This document shows, piece after piece, positions 3,881 through 62,663 of a DNA stretch of 64,000 nucleotides. Position numbers and translations under genes: made by a program. How positions within the stretch are numbered: position 1 is the stretch's first letter; every line of letters begins with the position of its first letter. Location of the stretch: IMG/VR virus record IMGVR_UViG_3300035180_001680; one strand, written 5' to 3'. The stretch is from a virus (Duplodnaviria > Caudoviricetes). Below the pieces are notes generated by a model that was not told where the DNA came from, searched no databases, and worked only from the letters and a program-made list of their open reading frames with translations.

Positions 3881-3967
3881 TGGAGCACGGAACGGGACTC
3901 GAACCCGCAAACGGTTTTCACCTGCCACCTTGAAAGGGTGGTGTCCAATCCATCTGACTTCCCGTGC
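3881..3967 (-). tRNA. tRNA-Glu(TTC) with long variable arm
   Basis: CCACC-CTTTCAA-GGTGG; variable arm GGT-GAAA-ACC; CCA. Confidence 0.8.
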
Positions 3968-13455: not shown

Positions 13456-14244
13456 TCAACGATTGATTGAGTAATCATATAAGGCTGAAAATATTTTTGA
13501 TACGTTATGATTGTAAAAACCTGATGAGTTAATACAGTTAAATTCTATAACCTTTATTTTGTCATCGACAAGAGCTGTGTCCATAACACAACACGGACTT
13601 GGTACCCACTTATCGGCGAATTTTTGTGCTTCTTTTATAACGCCAGTTTCCGTTTCATGATTTTTAATTAATCGTCCATTTGCACGGTACATGGAACCGT
13701 CAACAATTTCCCCTCCAACAACAAACCAACGCCATTCAGCTTGAATCGTCTGTGGTTCAGCAAGAACAATCATCGTTTCCGGTTCCATTTTATAAGTACC
13801 AGACATGTCACATTCCATTGCATCTTTGAGCCATTCTCTACATTCTTTCGCTTCAATAATTTGTCCAGAAAATTGTTTCAGATCTTCTGAAGGACGAATA
13901 AACCAAAGTTCGTTATCTGGTCTCGTGTGTAAAAACTCAATCGTCACGTTCAATGGTTTAATGAACTGTGCATTCATCATATCGTCACGGTTGGATGCAG
14001 CAGCTTCGTAATTGAATTTAGCTAAATCAAAATAGAGACCTTCCCATTTTAATTCATAATCAAGGTTTGTTAATAGTGTTGAACCATAAGGAATGTATTT
14101 GGTTCCTGTTAATGGTTCGGTTGAAGTTATTTCTCGAGAGAAAGGAATTAATCCAACAAATTCATGTGGGTAGTGTTCAACAGCAGCTTTTGTTAACTGA
14201 AGTTGTTCTTTATCCATTAAATTGTGTTGAATAAGAAATTTCAT
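13456..14244 (-). CDS. ATP-grasp domain protein (DUF4343-like)
   Basis: FIRPSEDLKQFSG, EWRWFVVGGEIV, KVIEFNCINSSGFY. Confidence 0.75.
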   Translation of the reverse strand: MKFLIQHNLMDKEQLQLTKAAVEHYPHEFVGLIPFSREITSTEPLTGTKYIPYGSTLLTNLDYELKWEGLYFDLAKFNYEAAASNRDDMMNAQFIKPLNVTIEFLHTRPDNELWFIRPSEDLKQFSGQIIEAKECREWLKDAMECDMSGTYKMEPETMIVLAEPQTIQAEWRWFVVGGEIVDGSMYRANGRLIKNHETETGVIKEAQKFADKWVPSPCCVMDTALVDDKIKVIEFNCINSSGFYNHNVSKIFSALYDYSINR

Positions 14245-14995: not shown

Positions 14996-16498
14996 TTAAA
15001 TTGTAACGAGTTGATAACGTTCACTGTTAATAACATCAAGCATCAAATCATAAGCAGACAAAAATTCTCCACCTATTGTATGCTTAAAGATAGACGGACT
15101 ACATCCACTAACCATTTGAAAACCACGCTCATCCATACTCATTGGAAACTGTTGGTTCTGAGCATCAACATTCCAAAACACCAAATTGGGCATTGTATAT
15201 CCACACTCACCAAATTCTTTAGAAATTGTTTGGAATAATTTTTCGTCAACCATACCCCGACCTTGATGCTCATAAGAATATCTAGCGTTGCTTGTAGCGG
15301 CATCAAATTCCATGTCAGAAATGATATACAACTTCTGTGGTAATTCAGATTGTGCTAACTTGTTTTGTTTGGCAACAGTAAGAATCAAACGGAACACAGC
15401 TTGAATATCTGTATTCATTTCCCATGCAGAACTATTCATATTGGCTATTTTTTCAACAAGGTCAGCTCCCTGAATTTTAAGTAGTTGAGGTGTAGAGCTA
15501 AAAGTAATGAACTTGTTATGATAAGCTTCACAAGTGTTACGTTCAGCCAAATACATTCCAACCGAAATGGCAACTTCCAATGGAAGACCAGCCATAGAAC
15601 CAGACACATCAACTACAGCAAGAGCATTTTCTTGTTTATCTCCAATATAGTTTGGAAGAGCGTCCCACAACGCATCCATGAGTTGGCGTTCGTGTTGTGG
15701 TGTGTTCCTGCCCATCGTAAATGCTTTGCGGACGATTTCATATGGAAAAAGAACACTCGCATTGATTTTCTTTTCGCCAGTCTTTAAAGAATCCAAGAAT
15801 TTCTTACGGCGTTCAGCATCGTGCGCGAAAAAAGCTTTCCCATATAACAAGTTAGCTTGAGAGGGAACGGCACTGTATTCAATACTATCCCACTGATTGG
15901 CAGACACCAACCGTTCAACAATGTTAATTTTCTTACGAAGAGTGCTCAACATCAAGCGATATGCTTTGGATCTTAATTTAAGACCCTTACGAGTTTTTGT
16001 TGCAAGTCGTTTCGTTTCTTTTGAAGAAGCGTTTTCACTTTTCAACCATTTTGCAAGCAACGAGGGATGTTCAGATGCCACGTCTTCGGTAATCTGTGTA
16101 AAGATTAGTGCAATCGCATCTGTTTCAAGTTCTGTATCAAATAACACATACAAATCATCCCAACGTCCAAAGTATGGAATAAGTTTAATGTTTTTACGGA
16201 CAGCGTCAGGGTTAACGTTAATCAACCACTTTAATTGCTTTCTAAACGTATCACGTTCACCTTGACCACCACGAGCGTCCCTGAAATAGAACATAGCACG
16301 AGTGGCTAACAATGCATTTTCTGCATAAGCTTTTGAAAACAAATGAAGAATTTCATCATCATCACGATTGCGGAGTGCACCACCCTGTGCAAACAAATCC
16401 AACATAGCTGATTTGGTTGTATCAAATGCAACAGCACCATTTTCCGTGTGTGCTACATTGGTTGTAATAGAAAGGGCATCCACAAATTCTTTGCTCAC
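14996..16498 (-). CDS. DUF2828 / TROVE-VWA (Ro60-like) protein
   Basis: TENGA, FYFRDARGGQGER, FGRWDDL, AKWL; VWA motif VVDVSGSM; ISDMEFD. Confidence 0.85.
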   Translation of the reverse strand: MSKEFVDALSITTNVAHTENGAVAFDTTKSAMLDLFAQGGALRNRDDDEILHLFSKAYAENALLATRAMFYFRDARGGQGERDTFRKQLKWLINVNPDAVRKNIKLIPYFGRWDDLYVLFDTELETDAIALIFTQITEDVASEHPSLLAKWLKSENASSKETKRLATKTRKGLKLRSKAYRLMLSTLRKKINIVERLVSANQWDSIEYSAVPSQANLLYGKAFFAHDAERRKKFLDSLKTGEKKINASVLFPYEIVRKAFTMGRNTPQHERQLMDALWDALPNYIGDKQENALAVVDVSGSMAGLPLEVAISVGMYLAERNTCEAYHNKFITFSSTPQLLKIQGADLVEKIANMNSSAWEMNTDIQAVFRLILTVAKQNKLAQSELPQKLYIISDMEFDAATSNARYSYEHQGRGMVDEKLFQTISKEFGECGYTMPNLVFWNVDAQNQQFPMSMDERGFQMVSGCSPSIFKHTIGGEFLSAYDLMLDVINSERYQLVTI

Positions 16499-18907: not shown

Positions 18908-18981
18908 GGTGCCCAATGTCGGAATCGAACCGACGGTCAAGTGTTTTAGAAGCACCTGCTTTACCATTAAGCCAATTGAGC
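18908..18981 (-). tRNA. amber suppressor tRNA(CTA)
   Basis: GCTCAAT-TG-GCTT..AAGC-A-GGTGC-TT-CTA-AA-ACACT-TGACC-GTCGG-TTCGATT-CCGAC-ATTGGGC-A-CC. Confidence 0.75.
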
Positions 18982-20696: not shown

Positions 20697-22033
20697 CAAT
20701 CTCTCAACTAAGAAAACCCCAGATGCTTCAACATCGGGGATGAATTAGTTGATCTCTCTTCTAACTTCCCCCATAAATACTCTTATACAAAGGGAGAACA
20801 CCACTTGCATAAAGCATACACGTTCCGATTAAATCCGACAACAGATCAGGAAACCGCGCTGAAACAGACAGGTGGATCAGTTCGTTGGTTGTGGAACCAA
20901 ATGTTAAAAGCAAATATTGACAAATATGCTGCTGAGGGGAAGTTTAATTTTCAGTTCGATATGAACCGGATGACAACGAAGTTGAGGGCCGAGATTCCGT
21001 GGCTTGAAGAGGTGAATAGCCAGGTTTTGCAGCAGAAAAACAGGGATTTAGATAAATCAATCAAAGCAAAAATCGCAAGGAAAACCAAACAGACTGGATT
21101 TCCTAAATTTAAGAAAAAGACAGAAAACAATGATTCATTTCGAGTTCCTGGTGGTTTTAAGTTATCGAATAAAGGCGTAAAATTGCCTAAAATCGGATGG
21201 ATTTCGTGGAAAATCAATAGAAAACTTCAGGGGAAAGCGAAAAATATTACATTTAAACAAGTAGGTGATAAGTGGAACGCAGTTGTTTTGTGCGAGATTG
21301 CTGATGTAGAACCAAGAACATTGTTTTCTGATGCCGAAGTTATCGGAATTGATGTTGGAATTAAAGATTTTGCTGTGTTGAGCAATGGAAAGAAGATTGC
21401 TAATCCCAAGGACCTTGAGAAGAGTTCTCGGTTGTTAAAGAGAAAACAACAATCACTCTCTAAGAAGGTTAAAGGATCTTCCAATCGAATCAAAGCAAGA
21501 AAATCTGTTGCTAAGTTGCACAGATCTGTAGCAAATAAAAGAAAAGACTTCCAGTGGAAACTAGTTGATTTGATAACCAAAAATCACTCAGTTGTTTGCA
21601 TGGAAGACCTGAATATTAGCGGAATGGTCAAGAACAGAAAGTTGGCTAAATCAATCGAATCTGCTGGATGGAGAATGTTTAAAGAAAAACTTAAACATAA
21701 ACTAGCAGAGACAGGTGGTTTGGTTGTCAATATCCCTAGATTTGCTCCATCTTCTAAAATGTGCTCATCGTGTGGAGCATTAAATCATTCTCTGACTCTA
21801 AAAGATAGAGAGTGGAAATGTGATTGCAATGCTGAACACGATAGAGACATTAACGCTGCGATTAATATTCGGAATATTGGTTTAAATACGCTGGGAACTA
21901 GCGGAATTTACGCCTGTGGAGTTGCCTCTGATGGGGATATAGCATATGATATATCTAGTTATGCAATGATGAAGCAGGAAAATCTGGGCGTTGGCCTGGA
22001 AGCCCCAAATGCTTTAGCATTGGGGTAGTTCAC
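20697..22033 (+). mobile_element. IS200/IS605-family (TnpB-only) insertion element
   Basis: preceded by TTTAT; left-end hairpin; right end ...GGGGTAGTTCAC; removing it restores the flanking gene frame; no target duplication. Confidence 0.85.
20805..22028 (+). CDS. tnpB: TnpB RNA-guided endonuclease
   Basis: HKAYTFRLNP HTH; RuvC GIDVG, MEDL, DRDINAA; Zn ribbon SKMCSSCG. Confidence 0.93.
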   Translation: MHKAYTFRLNPTTDQETALKQTGGSVRWLWNQMLKANIDKYAAEGKFNFQFDMNRMTTKLRAEIPWLEEVNSQVLQQKNRDLDKSIKAKIARKTKQTGFPKFKKKTENNDSFRVPGGFKLSNKGVKLPKIGWISWKINRKLQGKAKNITFKQVGDKWNAVVLCEIADVEPRTLFSDAEVIGIDVGIKDFAVLSNGKKIANPKDLEKSSRLLKRKQQSLSKKVKGSSNRIKARKSVAKLHRSVANKRKDFQWKLVDLITKNHSVVCMEDLNISGMVKNRKLAKSIESAGWRMFKEKLKHKLAETGGLVVNIPRFAPSSKMCSSCGALNHSLTLKDREWKCDCNAEHDRDINAAINIRNIGLNTLGTSGIYACGVASDGDIAYDISSYAMMKQENLGVGLEAPNALALG

Positions 22034-23994: not shown

Positions 23995-24624
23995 CTATTT
24001 AAATAAAGAGGGTAATGCAACTGAACCACGTTGAACAACAACTGCGTCATCATTATTATCAGCATAAAAAAAGTATTGAGAGTTATCAGCATACACAATT
24101 TTCCAATATCCAGACGGAATTGGAAGACCATTAATTGTTTGTTTGTTTTCGTATACTGCTATCGTTACAACATAAACATCTGTTTTTGAAGAATCAAAAA
24201 TACTTCTTACTTTTTCTTCTAGTAACTTCCACTCAACTCTATTTAAAGTTGGAGATTGTGGAGTCATATTTGTCAATAAAAAAGTTTCTTTCATTTCTTC
24301 TAAAGAAGATGCATCATCAGCAGGTGCCATATGACCTTTGTCATAATGTGTTTTTAAATATTGGCGGTTGTTAGGAACAAAACCAACCCTATCATCAGAA
24401 TGAAAATTGTTTGTTCGTTTTACTGACCCTACTGGGGAATTGTGTTTCAATAATTCTGATACAGCAATTACCTTGTGGTTGATAGTGTCATAATCCGATA
24501 CGTAAAAACTATTACAAAGTTCAGTAGTATTAGGAATGTTAAACGGTTTATGATCTGGGTATAGTTGAGGACAGTCTGCAAACGCGAAAGAAGAAACTAA
24601 AAGAAGCCCAAATAGAAATTTCAT
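23995..24624 (-). CDS. DNA/RNA non-specific endonuclease (NucA-like), exported
   Basis: signal peptide; YDKGHMAPA, TFLLTNMTPQ, LNRVEWKLLE. Confidence 0.9.
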   Translation of the reverse strand: MKFLFGLLLVSSFAFADCPQLYPDHKPFNIPNTTELCNSFYVSDYDTINHKVIAVSELLKHNSPVGSVKRTNNFHSDDRVGFVPNNRQYLKTHYDKGHMAPADDASSLEEMKETFLLTNMTPQSPTLNRVEWKLLEEKVRSIFDSSKTDVYVVTIAVYENKQTINGLPIPSGYWKIVYADNSQYFFYADNNDDAVVVQRGSVALPSLFK

Positions 24625-26906: not shown

Positions 26907-26990
26907 TGGTCCGCAGGGAGGGATTCGAACCCACAAAAGCACTACCGTTTGAAGATAGGGGCTGTACCAATTTACCTAAGCCACCTGCGG
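26907..26990 (-). tRNA. tRNA-Leu(CAA)
   Basis: CTATC-TTCAAAC-GGTAG; CCA. Confidence 0.75.
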
Positions 26991-27846: not shown

Positions 27847-27936
27847 TGGTGGGGAGAGGACAGAATCGAACTTCTTGCCACGAGGGACAGGGGCTACAAC
27901 CCTGCGCCAGGACCACCTAGCCTTATTTCACTCCCC
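27847..27936 (-). tRNA. tRNA-Tyr(GTA), divergent D-arm
   Basis: CAGGG-TTGTAGC-CCCTG; Tyr-type variable arm; CCA. Confidence 0.65.
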
Positions 27937-27943
27937 TTTATTT

Positions 27944-28029
27944 TGGAACGCTAGGTAGGATTTGCACCCACGTGGGCTTTCACCATCTGCTTTGCAGGCA
28001 GTTCCGTTCGTCTACTCCGGCACTAGCGC
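27944..28029 (-). tRNA. tRNA-Cys(GCA) with long variable arm
   Basis: ACTGC-CTGCAAA-GCAGA; U73; CCA. Confidence 0.8.
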
Positions 28030-28035
28030 ATAAAT

Positions 28036-28154
28036 TGGTGGGCATGGTAGGAATCGAACCTACTCACCACGAGGGAACGGATTTAGTCGAGAACACTGGA
28101 AAACCAATGCTCTCTAGTCAGTCCGCCGCGACTCTCCAACTTCGCCGCATGCCC
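28036..28154 (-). tRNA. tRNA-Tyr body with 33-nt hairpin insertion in the anticodon loop
   Basis: GCGGA/TCCGT stem encloses 40 nt; GAGAGCATTGG-TTTT-CCAGTGTTCTC hairpin; removing 28086-28118 gives CT-GTA-AA. Confidence 0.7.
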
Positions 28155-28190
28155 CAAAATATTTCAAATTTTTAAATAACAGTTTACAAC

Positions 28191-28222
28191 AAAAAAGCCT
28201 GGGTCTTTCGAGCCAGGCTTTC
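28191..28222 (-). terminator. intrinsic terminator of attenuator 2
   Basis: AAAGCCTGG-CTCGAAAGAC-CCAGGCTTTTTT. Confidence 0.85.
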
Positions 28223-28240
28223 TTTTGGGATTTTTTCTCT

Positions 28241-28336
28241 TTACATCTTGGTAATTCCCCAAACGGCGACCTGGCTCTTATCCAATATGGATAAAGACCC
28301 GAGTGATAGACAATAACCTAATCCGTTTGTGTTCAT
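28241..28336 (-). CDS. putative attenuator leader peptide 2: MNTNGLGYCLSLGSLSILDKSQVAVWGITKM
   Basis: AAAGGA RBS; residues 5-18 are 13/14 G,L,Y,C,S, the isotypes of the downstream tRNAs. Confidence 0.78.
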   Translation of the reverse strand: MNTNGLGYCLSLGSLSILDKSQVAVWGITKM

Positions 28337-28372
28337 TTTGTAAATCCTTTAAGTAATTAATTCAGTGTTATA

Positions 28373-28402
28373 AGTATATATGACTTATTTATAAAAGTCA
28401 AC
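28373..28402 (-). promoter_or_regulatory. sigma70-like promoter of tRNA operon 2
   Basis: TTGACT-TTTATAAATAAGTCATA-TATACT, identical to 4623-4652. Confidence 0.8.
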
Positions 28403-28485
28403 GAATCATTCTATTCCATCAGAAATACCACCAACAAATTTCTGACATTCCGTGTTATTATCGATTAATTGTTCAATGATATCAT

Positions 28486-30892: not shown

Positions 30893-33151
30893 ATGAGAAT
30901 AGTAGAGGATGTTAAATTGGATTTTGGTGATGTGCTACTTATTCCAAAAAGGTCATCACTAACTTCACGCAAAGACGTGTCTCTTGAAAGGTCGTTCACA
31001 TTCAAATACTCTCACCAACAATGGACTGGTATTCCAATTATAGCGTCAAATATGGATGGAGTTGGAACTTTTGAAATGGCGGAACGATTTGCTGAATTTA
31101 AAATGATGGTAGCATTACATAAACATTATCCAGTAGTTCAACTTGTAGATTTTTATAAAAACAATCCCTCAATTGAACAATATATTTTTTATTCAGTTGG
31201 AACGTCTCAAAGTGACCTCGATAAGCTTGAACACTTCATCAAAATGTTTGGCAGACCTCCTTTAAATGTGTGTGTTGACGTTGCTAATGGGTATACAGAA
31301 ACTTTTGTGTCTACTGTAACTAAATTACGAGACAAATATCCAAACACAACTCTTCTTGTTGGTAACGTTGTTACACCTGAAATGGCAGAACAATTAGTAT
31401 TATCTGGTGCAGATATCATCAAGGTTGGAGTAGGCAGTGGGTGTTTAACGGGTGATGCTCGAATTTTAATGTCCAGTGGTGTTTATAAAAATATCAAAGA
31501 TGTTCGACCTGGGGATCGTATAATTACGAGTACTGGAGAACCAGCAACTGTGTTATCCGCTTATACCACAGGATATAAGAAAACAACACAGATAAAACAC
31601 GATCACTTCAACCTTCCGTTGAGACTAACTCCTGACCATCATTGTTACGTAGGTGATCTAAATTCTATTAGTATTACAACACTACAAAGCAAAGGGTATA
31701 AAAAGGCGCTGGAGGTTCCTACTCGTTTGGGAGAGGAAAAAATAAAATGGAAACCGGTGAGTGAAATACGACAAGATGTAGCTTTACTTCCCATCAATAT
31801 TAATTGGGAAACACCAGATAGTTTTCATATCGATATTTCAAGTTATTTTATACGAGAAGAGCATTTGGATAATTATAACACTATTGTTAAATCTGATTAC
31901 AACACTGGTTATGTGTTTGGTTTTTTTCTTGGAGATGGTACTTCAAGAAAAACAAAAGGAACCAACAGCAGAGGATTTTCAAGTTTTTCTGGAGGTGTTG
32001 AGTGGTATATAAACTCAAGAGATCAACATCATGTAGTTAAATTAATGTCTGCTATTGAGATGGTTACGGGTAAAATCCCAGTATGTTCTAATAAACGGAA
32101 AACGTTGACCACGATCACCTTGTATAGTAAACAGTGGGGAGAATTTTTCCAACAGTTTGGAAAGTTCCATGAAAAACATCTTCCAGACCAATTCATGTGC
32201 ACCAACACAGAATATTTGCAGGGATTGTATGATGGATTAGTTGATAGTGACGGCCACATTACAAAAGAAGGCCAGGTTAATTTTAACAACACGTCACAAC
32301 AACTCATGGAACTATTCAGCTGGATTACGTTTAACATATATGGGAGTTTCCCAAATATGTCAAACAACGGGAAACGGTCTTCATATCCTGTGCAACACCC
32401 CCGAAAAGATGGATATCGAAGTTTTCTGGCGACCTCTCACAAAAAAAGACATCTTTCACATTATCAGGTTATAAAAATACTTGAAATTGAAAACCCAACA
32501 GAGTGTGAGGTTCCCGTCTACGATTTAGAAATTGATCACCCAACCCATAGTTTCATTGCAAACAACATGATTGTTCACAATTCAGTTTGTACCACAAGGT
32601 TAGTGTCTGGAATTGGTTTTCCCCAGTTAAGTGCAATTATAGAATGTGCTGATGCTGTTCATGGATTAGGCGGAAGGTTGTGTTCCGATGGGGGATGTAA
32701 TACTCCTGGAGACTTTGCAAAAGCATTTGCAGGTGGCGCTGATTTTGTAATGAGTGGTGGAATGTTCGCTGGACACGACGAAGGTGGAGGTGAAGTAAGT
32801 TCGAAGTGGTATAAAACTAACGAAGTTGTAAAAGATATTGATGGTTCTTCTCTTGAGTGTTTAGAAGTAGAGCGTAAGTTTGTCCAATTCTATGGGATGA
32901 GTTCATCTACAGCAATGGAAGCTCACAGTGGAGGTTTGGCTGAATATCGCTCAAGTGAAGGACGAACAATCGAACTTCCATATCGAGGACCAGTTAAAGA
33001 TACAATTAACCATATTCTTGGTGGGGTTCGGAGTACGTGTACATATACAGGAAGTAAAACACTAAAGGAACTTTCAAAACGTGCAACGTTTATTAGAGTG
33101 AATAGCACTCACAATCGGGTGTATGAAGACATAACAACAAAGGTGAGATAA
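30893..33151 (+). CDS. guaC: GMP reductase containing an intein
   Basis: LDFGDVLLIPKRS, PIIASNMDGVG, CVDVANGY, KVGVGSG|SVCTTR, FYGMSS, LGGVRSTCTYTG. Confidence 0.9.
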   Translation: MRIVEDVKLDFGDVLLIPKRSSLTSRKDVSLERSFTFKYSHQQWTGIPIIASNMDGVGTFEMAERFAEFKMMVALHKHYPVVQLVDFYKNNPSIEQYIFYSVGTSQSDLDKLEHFIKMFGRPPLNVCVDVANGYTETFVSTVTKLRDKYPNTTLLVGNVVTPEMAEQLVLSGADIIKVGVGSGCLTGDARILMSSGVYKNIKDVRPGDRIITSTGEPATVLSAYTTGYKKTTQIKHDHFNLPLRLTPDHHCYVGDLNSISITTLQSKGYKKALEVPTRLGEEKIKWKPVSEIRQDVALLPININWETPDSFHIDISSYFIREEHLDNYNTIVKSDYNTGYVFGFFLGDGTSRKTKGTNSRGFSSFSGGVEWYINSRDQHHVVKLMSAIEMVTGKIPVCSNKRKTLTTITLYSKQWGEFFQQFGKFHEKHLPDQFMCTNTEYLQGLYDGLVDSDGHITKEGQVNFNNTSQQLMELFSWITFNIYGSFPNMSNNGKRSSYPVQHPRKDGYRSFLATSHKKRHLSHYQVIKILEIENPTECEVPVYDLEIDHPTHSFIANNMIVHNSVCTTRLVSGIGFPQLSAIIECADAVHGLGGRLCSDGGCNTPGDFAKAFAGGADFVMSGGMFAGHDEGGGEVSSKWYKTNEVVKDIDGSSLECLEVERKFVQFYGMSSSTAMEAHSGGLAEYRSSEGRTIELPYRGPVKDTINHILGGVRSTCTYTGSKTLKELSKRATFIRVNSTHNRVYEDITTKVR
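31442..32581 (+). mobile_element. intein with LAGLIDADG homing endonuclease (380 aa)
   Basis: starts CLTGDARILM, ends IVHN before Ser; LAGLIDADG-like FGFFLGDG and YDGLVDSDG. Confidence 0.92.
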
Positions 33152-33368: not shown

Positions 33369-33866
33369 TTAAACTTTAATAATTTCCGCAAAACCTTCAC
33401 TTTTTGTTGGCTCTTGGTATGCTTCTCTCATACTCTTGATTACGGAAGAAGGAATACGTTTTCCAGTTTCTTTTTCTCTATTATCCAATCGACGCTGAAG
33501 TTCTGCTGAATCCACACTAAACACCACAGCAATCTTCGTATAACTGTTCGGAACAAGTCCTAACTTCCGACTACGAGACCCAACTGTCATGTTCGTTTGG
33601 TCAATAATAATATTCTGTTTTTTGTTGATAGCTTGTCTCAAATGTATAAACATTTTCTTTTCTGATTCTTTGTAATAACTGTTGAAAGCATCCGAATAAC
33701 TAATACCAGAGTCTTTCGCAATTTGTTCCAAAATATCATCTGTTGAGATAACAACATAATTCTTATGTTTTTTTAACTGAGCGATATATGTGGATTTGCC
33801 TGAACCAGGAAGTCCTACCAACATAACCATCTCAGGTTGAGTTTCTGTGATTTCATTCAATTTCAT
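33369..33866 (-). CDS. P-loop kinase (AAA_33 / polynucleotide-kinase-like)
   Basis: LVGLPGSGKST, IIIDQTN. Confidence 0.8.
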   Translation of the reverse strand: MKLNEITETQPEMVMLVGLPGSGKSTYIAQLKKHKNYVVISTDDILEQIAKDSGISYSDAFNSYYKESEKKMFIHLRQAINKKQNIIIDQTNMTVGSRSRKLGLVPNSYTKIAVVFSVDSAELQRRLDNREKETGKRIPSSVIKSMREAYQEPTKSEGFAEIIKV

Positions 33867-57159: not shown

Positions 57160-58167
57160 TTAACCTCTTCCGTATTTAAAAAGATATTCATTGCTGACAG
57201 CCTTCCAATGTTCTCGTCCATTAACTTGCTTGTATACTTCTCCTTCTCGGAGTTTACCAGTAAGTTTACTCGTTCCATCTGCCATTGACAACACATCTTG
57301 AACAGAAGTTTCAGGTGGAAACACATACTCTTCGTGAATTACAGGGACGTGCTTAAGTCCAAGGTCTTCACACAATTGACGCCGCTGGTTAGGGGAAAGA
57401 AAACATCCCAACTTAATGTCATATATCGCGAACACGTAGAAGTCTTGACCCTTCAACCCATAATGGTTACCCTGTATACCTTCTCCGATAATTTCACCCT
57501 GAATAATGATATCATCCAAGCCCGTTTCAATCAACCGCTGTTCGATGTTATACTTACGAGCTTGAGCCCACAAAGAGTTACCTTCAGTTTCTCTCAAGTT
57601 CAAGTTCCGAGAACATACGATGAACTCACCATCAATTCGACCGACAGACATCGAGCTACCCTCAAGCTTCTCAGTAACCTCATAAGTTAGTTGCTTCAAT
57701 TCTTCCCAGTTACTAGTGAGATTCTGAATTCGTTCTTCATCTGTCTTGGGAAATACAGATGGAAAAGCTCCCTTAACTACACCAGCCAGCTGAGCTGGGA
57801 TTGGAGGTTCGTACTTGACGATGCCAAGGAGGTCGGTGACATCTTCACCCTCATTGAACACCAACATGGATGTGGGGATGGGGAGAACAAGGCCCTGACT
57901 CAATTGCCCCCTCAATCGAACGGTGCGCAGACGTTCCCCAGAGATACCTTCGTATACAAAAGGAGTTTTATCACCTTTAGTCAGGAAAGGGGCAATGTCG
58001 TGTGGGATGAAGCTATCAACTTCACAGTATATTACAAGGTTACCAGGTTCAAATTCACCTTTTTTGACGACGACTTTCCATCCTCCAAGCAACGCAACTT
58101 CAATAGCGTCAGCATCAGGGATAGGTTGAATGTCATCGATTTTTCGAATAGTAGCAAGATGTCGCAT
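57160..58167 (-). CDS. RNA ligase, DRB0094-like family (N-terminal OB domain)
   Basis: IQPIPDADAIE, YCEVDSF, LRGQLSQGL, PKTDEERIQN, TEKLEGSS, REGEV. Confidence 0.9.
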   Translation of the reverse strand: MRHLATIRKIDDIQPIPDADAIEVALLGGWKVVVKKGEFEPGNLVIYCEVDSFIPHDIAPFLTKGDKTPFVYEGISGERLRTVRLRGQLSQGLVLPIPTSMLVFNEGEDVTDLLGIVKYEPPIPAQLAGVVKGAFPSVFPKTDEERIQNLTSNWEELKQLTYEVTEKLEGSSMSVGRIDGEFIVCSRNLNLRETEGNSLWAQARKYNIEQRLIETGLDDIIIQGEIIGEGIQGNHYGLKGQDFYVFAIYDIKLGCFLSPNQRRQLCEDLGLKHVPVIHEEYVFPPETSVQDVLSMADGTSKLTGKLREGEVYKQVNGREHWKAVSNEYLFKYGRG

Positions 58168-61152: not shown

Positions 61153-61462
61153 ATTGAATACTCCGGATAACGTTCATACACTCGTCATCATCCAACACAA
61201 AGCATTCGCTATCCCCTCCGATCAACTCCAAGGGAACATACTTATACTGCTTCCATGTTCTCTTGATGTGTTGTTCAATCTTGAATGCTTCGTATAGTGT
61301 AGTAGCTCTCTCGTACCGGGAGGTAACTGAGTATACTTTTTTGGACTGAAACCTTTTAGTCACAGACCGCTTCGTAATCCCTATCTTCTGAAACCGCTCT
61401 GATCCTTTACTGAACTCAACGAAGTATACCAGCGCGCTGATGTCTTTGAGTTCGGGTTTCAT
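61106..61462 (-). CDS. GIY-YIG-like nuclease domain protein
   Basis: VYFVEF...FQKIGITKRSVTKRF, GGDSECF. Confidence 0.55.
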   Translation of the reverse strand: MKPELKDISALVYFVEFSKGSERFQKIGITKRSVTKRFQSKKVYSVTSRYERATTLYEAFKIEQHIKRTWKQYKYVPLELIGGDSECFVLDDDECMNVIRSIQSTQLVPIPFSGSFRK

Positions 61463-61535
61463 CTTGAACAGGTGTTCGGTGTACACCTCAACAACTTTTT
61501 GTAGTAATATAGCTAAAACTTCTAAGAGGATCACC

Positions 61536-62663
61536 ATGAACCAATACCAGACTCAGCTATTCACTGAACTGCAAGCGCTCATCGCTAGCAATGAAGCCTT
61601 TTACGCACAGACGTTCGAGTCGAATGGTCACATCTATAAGATATACAACTATCGGTTAGCCTCATATACCGACTTCCTCGCTCCTTCCGCTTTGGAATCA
61701 AGGGGTGTGATGTTTGAGGTTGACGCTTCCGACGACCCAGTTGAACTGAAAGTTCTCCCTCAACCCAAATTCTTTAACGCCTATGAGAATCCATTCACGA
61801 TGGATCTCGACTTCACTGCAGTTGATGCAATCTACGATAAGCTTGACGGCTCGTTGATGTCTACTTATATGGAAGACGGACAGTTGAAGTTGAAATCTAA
61901 AGGTTCAATCTCTTCTGAACAAGCACTTGCTGCGATGGATTGGTTGGATAATCCTGACCAGGCTATGCTGTATCATAACCTCGCGTCAGCCACAGAGAAG
62001 GGATGGACTATCAATTTGGAGTTCATGAGCCCCAACTATAGGATCGTATTGGGTTACATGAACACTCACTGTAAGGTGTTGAACGCTCGTAACCGTGAAG
62101 ATGGCTCGTTTGTTGAATACGACCTTCTCCAATCGACGTTCGGTGCTCATAACGTGGTCAGTCGAGTGATTGTGGATGATACCAAAACCTTCATTGATAA
62201 CATTCCTGGAATGCAGGATGACATTGAAGGCTATGTGGTTTGGTTGTCTGACGGTCGAGTGGTCAAAATTAAATTGACCAAATATTTAAGCCTGCACCAC
62301 GCGAAAGATTCTGTCAACAATCCTCGTCGATTGTTTGAGTGTATTCTTGATGAAGGTGTTGATGATCTTCGTGGAATGTTCTATACTGATGCTGTTGCAA
62401 TGATGATGATTGATCAAATGCAGGTGAAGGTTGATCATATGTTTAACAGCATGGTAAATGAAGTTGAGACGTTCTACGAAATGAACAAACACCTTGACCG
62501 AAAAGACTACGCTGTTAAAGGTCAGGCTGAAGTTTCACCGATGTATTTCTCTCGTGCAATGAATTTGTATCTTGGGAAGAGTCCTGACTACAAACAGTTC
62601 ATGAAGAGTAAGTGGAAAGAATTGGGATTTAAAGATATGAAAATTGAAGAGACTGGAGAATGA
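61536..62663 (+). CDS. T4 RnlA-like RNA ligase 1
   Basis: IYNYRLASYTDF, ESRGVMFE, PKFFN, DKLDGSL, IEGYVV...VKIK. Confidence 0.9.
   Translation: MNQYQTQLFTELQALIASNEAFYAQTFESNGHIYKIYNYRLASYTDFLAPSALESRGVMFEVDASDDPVELKVLPQPKFFNAYENPFTMDLDFTAVDAIYDKLDGSLMSTYMEDGQLKLKSKGSISSEQALAAMDWLDNPDQAMLYHNLASATEKGWTINLEFMSPNYRIVLGYMNTHCKVLNARNREDGSFVEYDLLQSTFGAHNVVSRVIVDDTKTFIDNIPGMQDDIEGYVVWLSDGRVVKIKLTKYLSLHHAKDSVNNPRRLFECILDEGVDDLRGMFYTDAVAMMMIDQMQVKVDHMFNSMVNEVETFYEMNKHLDRKDYAVKGQAEVSPMYFSRAMNLYLGKSPDYKQFMKSKWKELGFKDMKIEETGE

What the first reader, a model, noticed from the sequence alone, without database searches (positions are those of the whole stretch)
28036..28154. tRNA-Tyr with a 33-nt hairpin insert whose excision register sets the anticodon
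The 40-nt loop reads CT-GACTA-[11-bp hairpin, TTTT loop]-GACTA-AA, with GACTA repeated on both sides. Removing 33 nt gives GTA (Tyr) if cut after position 34, CTA (amber) after 33, GAA after 35, or GAC after 36/37. The spacing resembles a bulge-helix-bulge (3-nt CTA and AAA bulges), but the central 4 nt are not Watson-Crick paired. It is too small to be a group I intron, so protein-assisted splicing would be needed. It is the first gene after attenuator 2.
Basis: partly seen in the sequence, partly recalled or inferred. Interest (0 to 1): 0.7.

Follow-up and report, generated by a model that had tools for sequence, protein, structure and literature searches.

The report
Hairpin intron splitting phage tRNA-Tyr anticodon
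A giant bacterial virus carries a tyrosine tRNA gene whose anticodon is split by a 33-base hairpin too small to splice itself; a distantly related phage keeps the same split, so it is probably a true intron removed by enzymes not yet known in bacteria.

Summary
Window 28036-28154 (minus strand) is a bacterial-type class II tRNA-Tyr gene with a 33-nt insert between G34 and U35. It folds as a 5-bp anticodon stem, a symmetric 7x7 internal loop and an 11-bp hairpin with a UUUU loop.

An intron-less Alishewanella phage tRNA-Tyr aligns with one exact 33-nt gap. At least 119 intron-less relatives exist in viral contigs, and most of those fetched have the loop CTGTAAA. One other phage contig (L083, 58% GC, few shared proteins) has a homologous 31-nt insert at the same bond. 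It shares the 7x7 loop and the AC...AC insert ends, but its 10-bp hairpin has diverged. Between the two genes all 21 cloverleaf pairs hold, three through compensatory double changes.

The most likely reading (about 0.5) is a protein-dependent intron. An unidentified endonuclease would cut it out, and the phage's T4 Rnl1-type ligase and polynucleotide kinase would reseal the loop. Archaeal BHB splicing and self-splicing are rejected. No support was found for a register-dependent anticodon, and no RNA data exist.

A diverged sister strain lacks the whole gene, and a degenerate second Tyr-like element lies nearby. Short "enigmatic" phage tRNA introns are already in print (Lak phages, 2019). This scan had also noted other phage tRNA introns on other DNA, so this is a new variant.

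The parts
28036..28154 (-). Whole pre-tRNA-Tyr(GUA) gene, 119 nt: G1-C72, A73, 13-nt variable arm, encoded CCA
   Evidence: ARAGORN -i; alignment with annotated phage tRNA-Tyr
28119..28154 (-). 5' exon, tRNA nt 1-34 (ends ...C32 U33 G34)
   Evidence: One exact gap in the alignment with intron-less homologues. Contigs of an intron-less relative in runs X3 and X4 stop matching the window exactly at 28119 (table 7)
28086..28118 (-). 33-nt insert (putative intron) in the GUA register: AC-UA, hairpin, G-AC
   Evidence: no second copy in this genome or in the L083 record
28089..28114 (-). 11-bp hairpin with UUUU loop inside the insert
   Evidence: MFE and centroid folds
28036..28085 (-). 3' exon, from U35 A36 A37 A38 to CCA
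28192..28401 (-). Context: promoter-like site (28401-28373), 31-codon leader ORF (28336-28241, contains GLGYCLSLGSLS) and terminator hairpin with T-run just upstream of the tRNA
   Evidence: weak Thr-leader-like Rfam match; an earlier scan note on this attenuator
61440..62663 (+). Full-length homologue of T4 RNA ligase 1 (anticodon-loop repair ligase); candidate sealing enzyme
   Evidence: Pfam T4_Rnl1_C, E=8e-19; PDB 2C5U, E=7e-63 over residues 39-381
33369..33866 (-). P-loop polynucleotide-kinase-like protein; candidate 5'-end healing enzyme
   Evidence: Pfam AAA_33, E=8e-27; best PDB match Pnkp1 4XRP, also the mammalian PNKP kinase domain
57160..58167 (-). Second RNA ligase, Naegleria NgrRnl-like (N-terminal OB fold plus nucleotidyltransferase)
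   Evidence: Pfam RNA_ligase and PHA02142; PDB 5COT, E=1e-80
27852..27935 (-). Degenerate second tRNA-Tyr(GUA)-like element: good anticodon arm and a similar variable arm, but defective T stem and D arm. Qualifies the 'only tRNA-Tyr' statement
   Evidence: Regex hit; low-stringency ARAGORN and fold; Rfam gives only 23.5 bits, E=0.18

Best explanation
This is a genuine intron in a phage tRNA-Tyr(GUA) gene, and it needs proteins for its removal. The precursor is transcribed with the downstream tRNA array. Its anticodon arm carries a symmetric 7x7 internal loop capped by a 10-11-bp hairpin. An endonuclease, either phage- or host-encoded and not identified here, would cut after G34 and before U35. 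Each cut lies 3 nt downstream of one helix and 4 nt upstream of the other, a two-fold symmetric layout that would suit a dimeric enzyme. The two tRNA halves, held together by the cloverleaf, would then be healed and sealed in the anticodon loop by the phage's polynucleotide kinase and T4 Rnl1-type ligase, restoring the loop CUGUAAA. Shown: the gene, the insert, its fold, its homologue, and the ligase and kinase genes. Inferred: that excision happens at all, where the cuts fall, which enzymes act, and the end chemistry.
For: (1) The insert falls at one bond of an otherwise normal bacterial-type tRNA-Tyr. Removing it restores the exact loop CTGTAAA found in 71 of 80 fetched intron-less relatives. 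(2) L083 comes from a 58% GC phage that shares only about six weakly similar proteins with this one. It has a homologous 31-nt insert at the same bond, with the same 7x7 loop, the same 4-nt and 3-nt flanks beginning and ending in AC, and a shared AGCAU...GUGYU core. Its hairpin differs in length and sequence: 10 bp with a UAAC loop against 11 bp with UUUU. (3) Between the two insert-bearing genes all 21 cloverleaf pairs are kept. All six stem substitutions form three compensatory double changes. The loop residues flanking the insert are identical. The tRNA body and the future anticodon loop have therefore stayed under selection while carrying the insert. (4) Both arms fold far better than shuffles: z = -3.9 and -4.65, with 0 of 200 shuffles as good. 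(5) ARAGORN finds tRNAs for all 20 amino acids in the contig, and this is the only well-formed Tyr gene. Tyr codons make up about 3.9% of ORF codons. (6) The leader ORF before the array contains a Tyr codon along with Gly, Leu, Cys and Ser codons. (7) A T4 Rnl1 homologue, a PNK-like kinase and a second RNA ligase are encoded in the window. T4 Rnl1 with Pnkp is the textbook system for resealing broken anticodon loops. (8) The insert-bearing gene is identical in contigs from four runs. (9) Short non-group-I introns in phage tRNAs, including tRNA-Tyr(GTA), are reported for Lak megaphages (PMC6784885).
Against: No endonuclease was found. The held 52% of the genome has no match to tRNA_int_endo, RtcB, RNase III, PIN or PemK/MazF, and Pfam scans of about 50 window ORFs showed no RNA endonuclease. 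RNA repair kits are common in large phages whether or not they have introns (PMC7824862), so the ligase and kinase permit the model without pointing to it. Only two examples exist. A diverged sister strain in three runs lacks the whole gene, so it is dispensable there. A second, degenerate Tyr-like element lies 100 nt downstream. Other inserts in the two phages have different shapes and positions, so a single simple recognition rule is not evident.
Confidence: 0.5

Rival explanations
1. The unspliced RNA is the working product: a tRNA-shaped decoy, sponge or protected reservoir. It might be aimed at host nucleases that attack tRNA-Tyr, or at a tRNA-binding enzyme, and it would not serve as a decoder. 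The insert separates G34 from U35, the dinucleotide read by colicin-E5-type anticodon nucleases and by tRNA-guanine transglycosylase (from general knowledge).
For: A conserved cloverleaf with a conserved insert shape would also be expected for a structured decoy. tRNA-Tyr is a known target of anti-phage systems: Septu cleaves tRNA-Tyr (abstract of PMC13096335). No excision enzyme was found.
Against: Perfect conservation of CUG and UAAA on either side of the insert, which recreate a canonical loop only after excision, is not needed for a decoy. The gene sits in a normal decoding tRNA array behind a leader that contains a Tyr codon.
Confidence: 0.17
2. The gene is dead or dying: a tRNA-Tyr inactivated by a chance hairpin insertion and now drifting.
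For: A sister strain has lost the whole gene. The held contig is only about half the genome, so another tRNA-Tyr may exist. A second Tyr-like element is nearby. The host's own tRNA-Tyr could suffice.
Against: All stem changes between the two insert-bearing genes are compensatory, and there are no disabling changes. The insert keeps its architecture across a large sequence distance. The sequence is identical in four runs. The nearby intron-less element is the one that looks degenerate. The insert is not a repeated mobile element in either genome.
Confidence: 0.15
3. Ordinary tRNA end-processing enzymes excise the insert, followed by ligation. RNase P and RNase Z would treat the hairpin as an acceptor/T-arm minihelix, as this scan proposed for tRNA-shaped phage introns.
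For: A 10-11-bp helix is close in length to the 12-bp acceptor/T stack. Earlier scan notes describe T-arm-bearing mini-introns in other phages, and I saw such inserts in L154 and L192.
Against: The hairpin has a 4-nt loop with no T-loop motif and no CCA-like tail. RNase P would cut at the helix base, leaving CUGACUA on the 5' exon. RNase Z would cut one nt past the helix, leaving ACUAAA on the 3' exon. A further 4 nt and 2 nt would then have to be trimmed precisely to restore CUGUAAA (read from the sequence). In L083 the four flanking positions cannot extend the helix.
Confidence: 0.05
4. A BHB-type endonuclease of the archaeal kind splices it, cutting 6 nt into each strand of the 7x7 loop. 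The product would carry the anticodon GAC.
For: The 7+7 spacing equals 4-bp helix plus 3-nt bulge on each strand (PMC4090602). In L083 the product loop would be a well-formed CUGACAA.
Against: The four central positions cannot form Watson-Crick pairs in either phage: CUGA opposite GACU or CACU. There is no tRNA_int_endo match in the held genome. The tRNA is bacterial in type (class II Tyr, G1-C72), and its context is bacterial: a T4-like ligase, a sigma-70-like promoter and an intrinsic terminator. The product would be a Tyr body with a Val anticodon, and U37 in this window. All relatives have GUA.
Confidence: 0.03
5. Alternative excision registers yield different anticodons (GUA, CUA, GAA or GAC) from one gene.
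For: The arithmetic is correct and the flanks that allow it (CUGAC...ACUAAA) are conserved in L083. The phage also carries a separate tRNA(CUA).
Against: Reading TAG as sense does not lengthen ORFs: 44 ORFs of 300 aa or more under either code. TAG ends 19 of 212 ORFs. No RNA evidence exists. The conserved AC ends are explained more simply as splice-site signals.
Confidence: 0.03

Closest known systems
'Enigmatic' introns in tRNAs of Lak megaphages (Devoto et al. 2019, Nat Microbiol, PMC6784885), including tRNA-Tyr(GTA)
   Same: Short, non-group-I inserts in the anticodon loops of tRNA genes in very large phages of bacteria, with no known splicing enzyme. Tyr(GTA) is one of the carriers. Some related genomes have the insert and others lack it.
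   Different: The Lak Tyr intron is predicted at 37/38 and is 93 nt long (Table S6). One Lak intron (in tRNA-Thr) is predicted to be tRNA-like. Here the insert is 33 nt, a single plain hairpin, sits at 34/35, and is framed by a symmetric 7x7 loop. The host clade also differs: the nearest isolate gene is from an Alishewanella phage, whereas Lak phages infect Prevotella.
Archaeal and eukaryotic protein-spliced tRNA introns (BHB motif, EndA/Sen endonuclease, then RtcB or Trl1 ligase)
   Same: A small intron in the anticodon loop, two helices 7 nt apart on each strand, two-fold symmetric cut sites, and exons held together by the tRNA body. The yeast and plant ligase Trl1 combines an Rnl1-type ligase with a kinase, the same activities this phage encodes separately.
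   Different: There is no central 4-bp helix and there are no 3-nt bulges. The required cuts lie 3 nt, not 6 nt, from the upstream helix. No EndA homologue was found. The tRNA and its context are bacterial.
T4 Pnkp/Rnl1 repair of tRNA-Lys cut by the PrrC anticodon nuclease
   Same: An Rnl1-type ligase plus a polynucleotide kinase reseal a break next to the wobble base (33/34 in T4, 34/35 needed here). The phage encodes clear homologues.
   Different: T4 repairs a single cut inflicted by the host. Here two programmed cuts must remove 33 nt first.
Group I introns in bacterial and phage tRNA anticodon loops (for example tRNA-Leu(UAA), Azoarcus tRNA-Ile)
   Same: An intron in a bacterial-type tRNA anticodon loop.
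   Different: Group I introns are roughly 200 nt or longer and have a catalytic core. This insert is 33 nt, and no Rfam ribozyme or intron family matches it.
tRNA-shaped mini-introns noted earlier in this scan in other jumbo phages (notes e1-3634531, e1-5367690, e1-5361248)
   Same: The same general phenomenon, sometimes splitting the anticodon itself. I also saw T-arm-bearing inserts in L154 and L192.
   Different: Those inserts are 48-68 nt with T-arm-like modules. This one has no T-loop motif, and its cut sites do not fit RNase P or RNase Z geometry.

Membership tests
tRNA (Rfam RF00005), bacterial class II tRNA-Tyr | Cloverleaf with a 7-bp acceptor stem, D arm, T arm with a GTTCGAWTC-type loop, and a 7-nt anticodon loop | tested here: met
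   All stems are present and the gene is homologous to an annotated phage tRNA-Tyr. The 7-nt loop exists only after the 33 nt are removed. The default tRNA finder and Rfam do not call the unspliced gene.
tRNA (Rfam RF00005), bacterial class II tRNA-Tyr | Bacterial Tyr identity set: G1-C72, A73, long variable arm, G34 U35 A36 | tested here: met
   G1-C72, A73, a 13-nt variable arm, and GUA in the register that matches 72 of 80 relatives. Actual charging cannot be tested here.
Group I self-splicing intron | Catalytic core (P3-P9, guanosine-binding site), usually 200 nt or more | tested here: not met
   The insert is a single 33-nt hairpin, and no Rfam intron or ribozyme matches at E<=1.
BHB (archaeal-type) tRNA intron | Central 4-bp helix flanked by two 3-nt bulges that carry the splice sites | tested here: not met
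   The spacing fits, but the four central positions are C-U, U-C, G-A and A-G (A-C in L083). Cuts at the BHB positions would give GAC, not GUA.
BHB (archaeal-type) tRNA intron | An EndA/Sen-family endonuclease is available | tested here: inconclusive
   No PF01974 match in the held contig, but the contig is about 52% complete and the host is unknown.
Heal-and-seal tRNA ligation (T4 Rnl1 + Pnkp; Trl1-like) | An Rnl1-family ligase with the tRNA-specific C-terminal domain | tested here: met
   Window 61440-62663: T4_Rnl1_C, E=8e-19; 2C5U, E=7e-63.
Heal-and-seal tRNA ligation (T4 Rnl1 + Pnkp; Trl1-like) | A 5'-kinase and a 2',3'-phosphate-removing activity | tested here: inconclusive
   A kinase-like protein is present. 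Only a generic metallophosphoesterase was found, with no PDB relative. No HAD or 2H phosphoesterase was searched for.
Phage tRNA 'enigmatic intron' class (Lak phages) | A short insert in a phage tRNA anticodon loop, absent from homologous genes, with no self-splicing core | tested here: met
   description in PMC6784885.
Repeated palindromic mobile element (REP, MITE or PATE-like) | Multiple copies per genome, target-site duplication | tested here: not met
   There is no other copy in G000 or G001: only chance matches of 12 nt or less. The GACTA repeat is not conserved in L083.

The most novel reading that the evidence does not exclude
Some large phages of bacteria run a protein-only tRNA splicing pathway unrelated to EndA. 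A so far unknown, probably dimeric, endonuclease recognises a symmetric 7x7 internal loop between the anticodon stem and an intron hairpin. It cuts 3 nt past each helix, and the phage's Rnl1 and PNK repair enzymes act as the splicing ligase. That would make tRNA splicing by cut-and-ligate a three-domain process and give phage 'RNA repair' genes a housekeeping role.
Probability: 0.4. Interest if true: 0.85.

Novelty: new variant of a known kind. Interest (0 to 1): 0.62.

Why it matters
Bacteria are thought to have only self-splicing (group I) tRNA introns, and no bacterial or phage tRNA-splicing endonuclease is known. Short phage tRNA introns were flagged as enigmatic in 2019 and, as far as my literature searches reached, remain unexplained. 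This case is unusually small and clean: a single hairpin, exact boundaries fixed by many intron-less relatives, and a homologue that shows which features are conserved. That makes it a convenient 119-nt substrate for finding the enzyme. If splicing is shown, phage RNA ligase and kinase genes, now read only as counter-defence, would gain a second role. Splitting G34 from U35 might also protect or time the supply of a tRNA that host defences are known to target.

Tried and rejected
**More insert-bearing relatives**
- Three pattern scans of viral contigs with progressively looser tRNA-Tyr patterns returned only L083. An exact 28-mer returned nothing.
- The single metagenome scan and the single genome-contig scan returned 60 loci. 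All were false positives: ordinary actinobacterial tRNA-Tyr genes whose acceptor stem matched the first pattern block.
- GenBank phages had no near match. In distant mode they gave only the intron-less Alishewanella phage genes.

**RNA evidence**
- No RNA holder is listed for this stretch, so expression and splicing could not be examined.

**Excision enzyme**
- Searches of the held contig for tRNA_int_endo, RtcB, RNase III, PIN and PemK/MazF found nothing.
- The PF09511 search was uninformative, because its control rang nowhere and it missed the Rnl1 homologue that other tools found.
- The L083 record (35 kb, about 10% complete) has no Rnl1 homologue in the held part, which says nothing either way.
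- Pfam scans of about 50 window ORFs showed no RNA endonuclease. A DNA/RNA non-specific nuclease (23995-24624) and a TnpB (20805-22028) are present, but nothing links them to the tRNA.

**Other ideas**
- Hammerhead and k-turn readings of the 7x7 loop, checked by eye, do not fit the consensus and are not conserved in L083.
- Stop-codon recoding was rejected.
- Phylogeny of 57 family members is unresolved with 87 columns. One origin of the insert is neither shown nor rejected (p-AU 0.39).
- An ARAGORN 'Tyr with 120-nt intron' in L175 is a false call.
- The sister strain's sequence could not be retrieved, so I could not see whether its version of the second Tyr-like element is intact.

Full report
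**1. What is there**

On the minus strand, window 28154 to 28036 encodes a 119-nt RNA. The default ARAGORN run lists 23 tRNAs in the window but not this one. With intron search it reports tRNA-Tyr(GTA), 86 nt plus a 33-nt intron, at exactly these coordinates.

The body is a bacterial-type class II tRNA-Tyr:
- acceptor stem GGGCATG/CATGCCC, with G1-C72
- discriminator A73 and an encoded CCA
- D stem GCGA/TCGC
- a 13-nt variable arm
- T arm GTAGG-TTCGATT-CCTAC

The MFE and centroid folds give a cloverleaf whose anticodon arm is a 5-bp stem, a symmetric 7x7 internal loop and the hairpin. For the arm alone the z-score is -3.9, and none of 200 shuffles folds as well. Rfam finds no intron or ribozyme family here. 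It gives only a meaningless 13-bit tmRNA match.

**2. It is an interrupted tRNA-Tyr, and the interruption lies between G34 and U35**

The only GenBank phage match is the annotated 86-nt tRNA-Tyr of Alishewanella phages Slicko01 and Slickus01. Aligned with the window gene, it shows a single exact 33-nt gap. On either side the sequence is conserved: GCGGA-YTG before the gap and TAAA-TCCGT after it.

Of the 80 fetched, 72 have the loop YTGTAAA, and 71 of these have CTGTAAA. The spliced window sequence is 90.7% identical to the nearest of them, L153.

Contigs of yet another intron-less relative occur in two of the runs that hold this phage. They stop matching the window exactly at 28119, the exon boundary (table 7).

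The register that restores the family's loop is therefore CUG|UAAA. In that register the insert is window 28118-28086.

**3. The insert is real and conserved, not noise**

Contigs from four public DNA runs (sediment and microbial-mat metagenomes, four studies, one of which may be the source of this DNA) carry the gene with no difference across 28036-28154.

One other contig in all the searched collections carries an insert: L083, IMG/VR contig 3300048831_000083, 35 kb, 58% GC. Its phage shares only about six weakly similar proteins with this one. Its tRNA-Tyr is 89.5% identical in the exons and has a 31-nt insert at the same bond. The L083 arm folds as a 5-bp stem, a 7x7 loop and a 10-bp hairpin with a UAAC loop. 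Its z-score is -4.65, with 0 of 200 shuffles as good.

The two inserts compare as follows:
- Shared: the first two nucleotides (AC) and the last two (AC).
- Shared: the 4-nt and 3-nt single-stranded flanks.
- Shared: a core AGCAU...GUGYU in the stem.
- Different: the rest of the stem and the loop, which have changed by substitutions and indels.

The window's GACTA direct repeat is not conserved, since L083 has GACAC...CACTA. It is therefore a by-product of the AC ends, not a target-site duplication. The insert has no other copy in either genome.

Between the two insert-bearing genes all 21 cloverleaf pairs are standard pairs. All six stem substitutions form three compensatory double changes (5:68, 12:23, 13:22). 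Sliding the 3' partners drops pairing to 36-52%. With only two sequences the shuffle control is weak (54 of 500), but not one stem position is broken.

A tree of 57 family members is unresolved. A single origin of the insert is neither shown nor rejected (p-AU 0.39).

**4. Context**

The window is part of a 178.8-kb IMG/VR contig estimated to be 52% complete. The contig has 44 ARAGORN tRNA calls covering all 20 amino acids, and this gene is the only well-formed tRNA-Tyr.

That statement needs a qualification. About 100 nt downstream, at 27852-27935 (minus strand), lies a second element. It has a good CAGGG-UUGUAGC-CCCUG arm and a similar variable arm, but a defective T stem and D arm. Rfam gives it 23.5 bits (E=0.18), and ARAGORN finds it only at low stringency.

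The gene is the first after a promoter-like site, a 31-codon leader ORF containing GLGYCLSLGSLS, and a terminator hairpin.

The code is standard. Reading TAG as sense does not lengthen ORFs. TAG ends 19 of 212 ORFs, and Tyr codons make up about 3.9% of ORF codons.

In three runs a contig of a diverged sister strain, some 10-15% different in the aligned flanks, joins 28035 directly to 28162. The sister strain therefore lacks the whole tRNA-Tyr gene, and its version of the second Tyr-like element is too diverged to align (tables 5 and 8). The gene thus behaves as an accessory cassette. This fits its presence in the unrelated L083 phage.

**5. How it most likely works**

Self-splicing is excluded by size and by the Rfam result.

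Archaeal BHB splicing is rejected for four reasons:
- The 7+7 spacing does equal 4-bp helix plus 3-nt bulge per strand (PMC4090602). But the four central positions cannot pair in either phage.
- BHB cuts would give GAC on a Tyr body.
- No EndA homologue is present in the held contig.
- The tRNA and its surroundings are bacterial in type.

RNase P and RNase Z acting on the hairpin as a minihelix would leave 4 and 2 extra nucleotides on the exons. The hairpin also has neither a T loop nor a CCA-like tail.

What remains is a cut-and-ligate pathway with an unknown endonuclease. In the GUA register each cut lies 3 nt after one helix and 4 nt before the other. The two cuts lie immediately 5' of the two central nucleotides (A and U35) of the symmetric loop. 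That layout would suit a dimeric enzyme. The conserved AC at both insert ends may be part of the signal. All of this is inference.

The sealing half is well provided for in the window:
- a full-length T4 RNA ligase 1 homologue with the tRNA-specific C-terminal domain (61440-62663; 2C5U, E=7e-63)
- a polynucleotide-kinase-like protein (33369-33866; best PDB match Pnkp1)
- a second, NgrRnl-type RNA ligase (57160-58167)
- a metallophosphoesterase of unclear role

Such kits are common in large phages as a counter-measure to anticodon nucleases (PMC7824862). They make the model feasible but are not specific evidence for it.

No RtcB, RNase III, PIN or MazF homologue and no other RNA endonuclease was found in the held half of the genome.

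**6. Rivals**

The RNA may act unspliced, as a decoy or protected reservoir. tRNA-Tyr is a known defence target (PMC13096335 abstract), and the insert separates G34 from U35.

The gene may instead be decaying. The sister strain lacks it and half the genome is unseen.

Against both rivals stand the intact, compensated cloverleaf and the untouched CUG/UAAA flanks, which make sense only if the loop is rebuilt.

**7. Relation to what is known**

Devoto et al. 2019 (PMC6784885) reported introns in Lak megaphage tRNAs, called them enigmatic, and listed one in tRNA-Tyr(GTA), 93 nt long and predicted at 37/38. Earlier notes of this scan describe tRNA-shaped mini-introns of 48-68 nt in other jumbo phages, and I saw such inserts in L154 and L192.

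The general phenomenon is therefore in print and has been met before in this scan on other DNA. The present type is distinct: a plain 33-nt hairpin at 34/35 inside a symmetric 7x7 loop, with AC...AC ends. Four full-text searches did not find it described, nor any mechanism for phage tRNA introns.

I rate it a new variant of a known, unexplained kind. Confidence that it is a spliced intron is about 0.5, and interest is 0.62.

Noticed in passing
G000:C1:66175-66290 (+), about 630 nt outside the window: A second insert-bearing tRNA in the same phage. ARAGORN calls it Ser(CGA) with a 31-nt insert. Here the insert is a hairpin stacked directly on the anticodon stem at or near 37/38, a different geometry from the Tyr insert, with no AC ends. 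The gene has A73 and no encoded CCA, so its identity is uncertain.
   Followed up: partly
L083:13139-13262 (+): The other carrier phage also has a tRNA called Thr(UGU) with a 34-nt insert made of two small hairpins at about 36/37. Both carriers of the Tyr insert thus have at least two differently shaped tRNA inserts.
   Followed up: partly
window 27852-27935 (-): A degenerate tRNA-Tyr(GUA)-like element between tRNA-Cys and tRNA-Leu: a good anticodon arm and a Tyr-like variable arm, but a broken T stem and an odd D arm. In the sister strain this stretch has the same length but is too diverged to align.
   Followed up: partly
window 28036-28161, seen in runs X1-X3: A sister strain, some 10-15% diverged in the aligned flanks, lacks the entire tRNA-Tyr gene and joins the leader/terminator directly to tRNA-Cys. 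The gene is a clean presence/absence cassette.
   Followed up: partly
window 18908-18981 (-): A tRNA with a CUA (amber-reading) anticodon, although the ORFs give no sign that TAG is read as sense. TAG is simply the rarest stop, ending 19 of 212 ORFs.
   Followed up: partly
whole contig, e.g. window 27944-28029, 3881-3967, 26907-26990 (-): Several tRNAs that are normally class I carry long variable arms in this phage: Cys 86 nt, Glu 87 nt, Lys 84 nt, and outside the window Ile 85 nt and Asn 86 nt.
   Followed up: no
window 28346-28413: Summed contig depth rises 4- to 7-fold over this roughly 60-bp stretch, which holds the promoter-like site, and several unrelated contigs end or begin there. It looks like a short element repeated across the phage genome or population.
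   Followed up: no
window 20805-22028 (+): An IS605 OrfB/TnpB (Cas12f-like) gene sits among the tRNA arrays, on the strand opposite to most genes.
   Followed up: no
window 30893-33151 (+): An IMP dehydrogenase / GMP reductase-family gene is interrupted by an intein with a LAGLIDADG-like segment.
   Followed up: no
window 14996-16498 (-) and 13456-14244 (-): A DUF2828/DUF7788 protein and an R2K-clade ATP-grasp protein lie next to a tRNA-Ser gene. Their functions are unknown and could relate to RNA handling.
   Followed up: no
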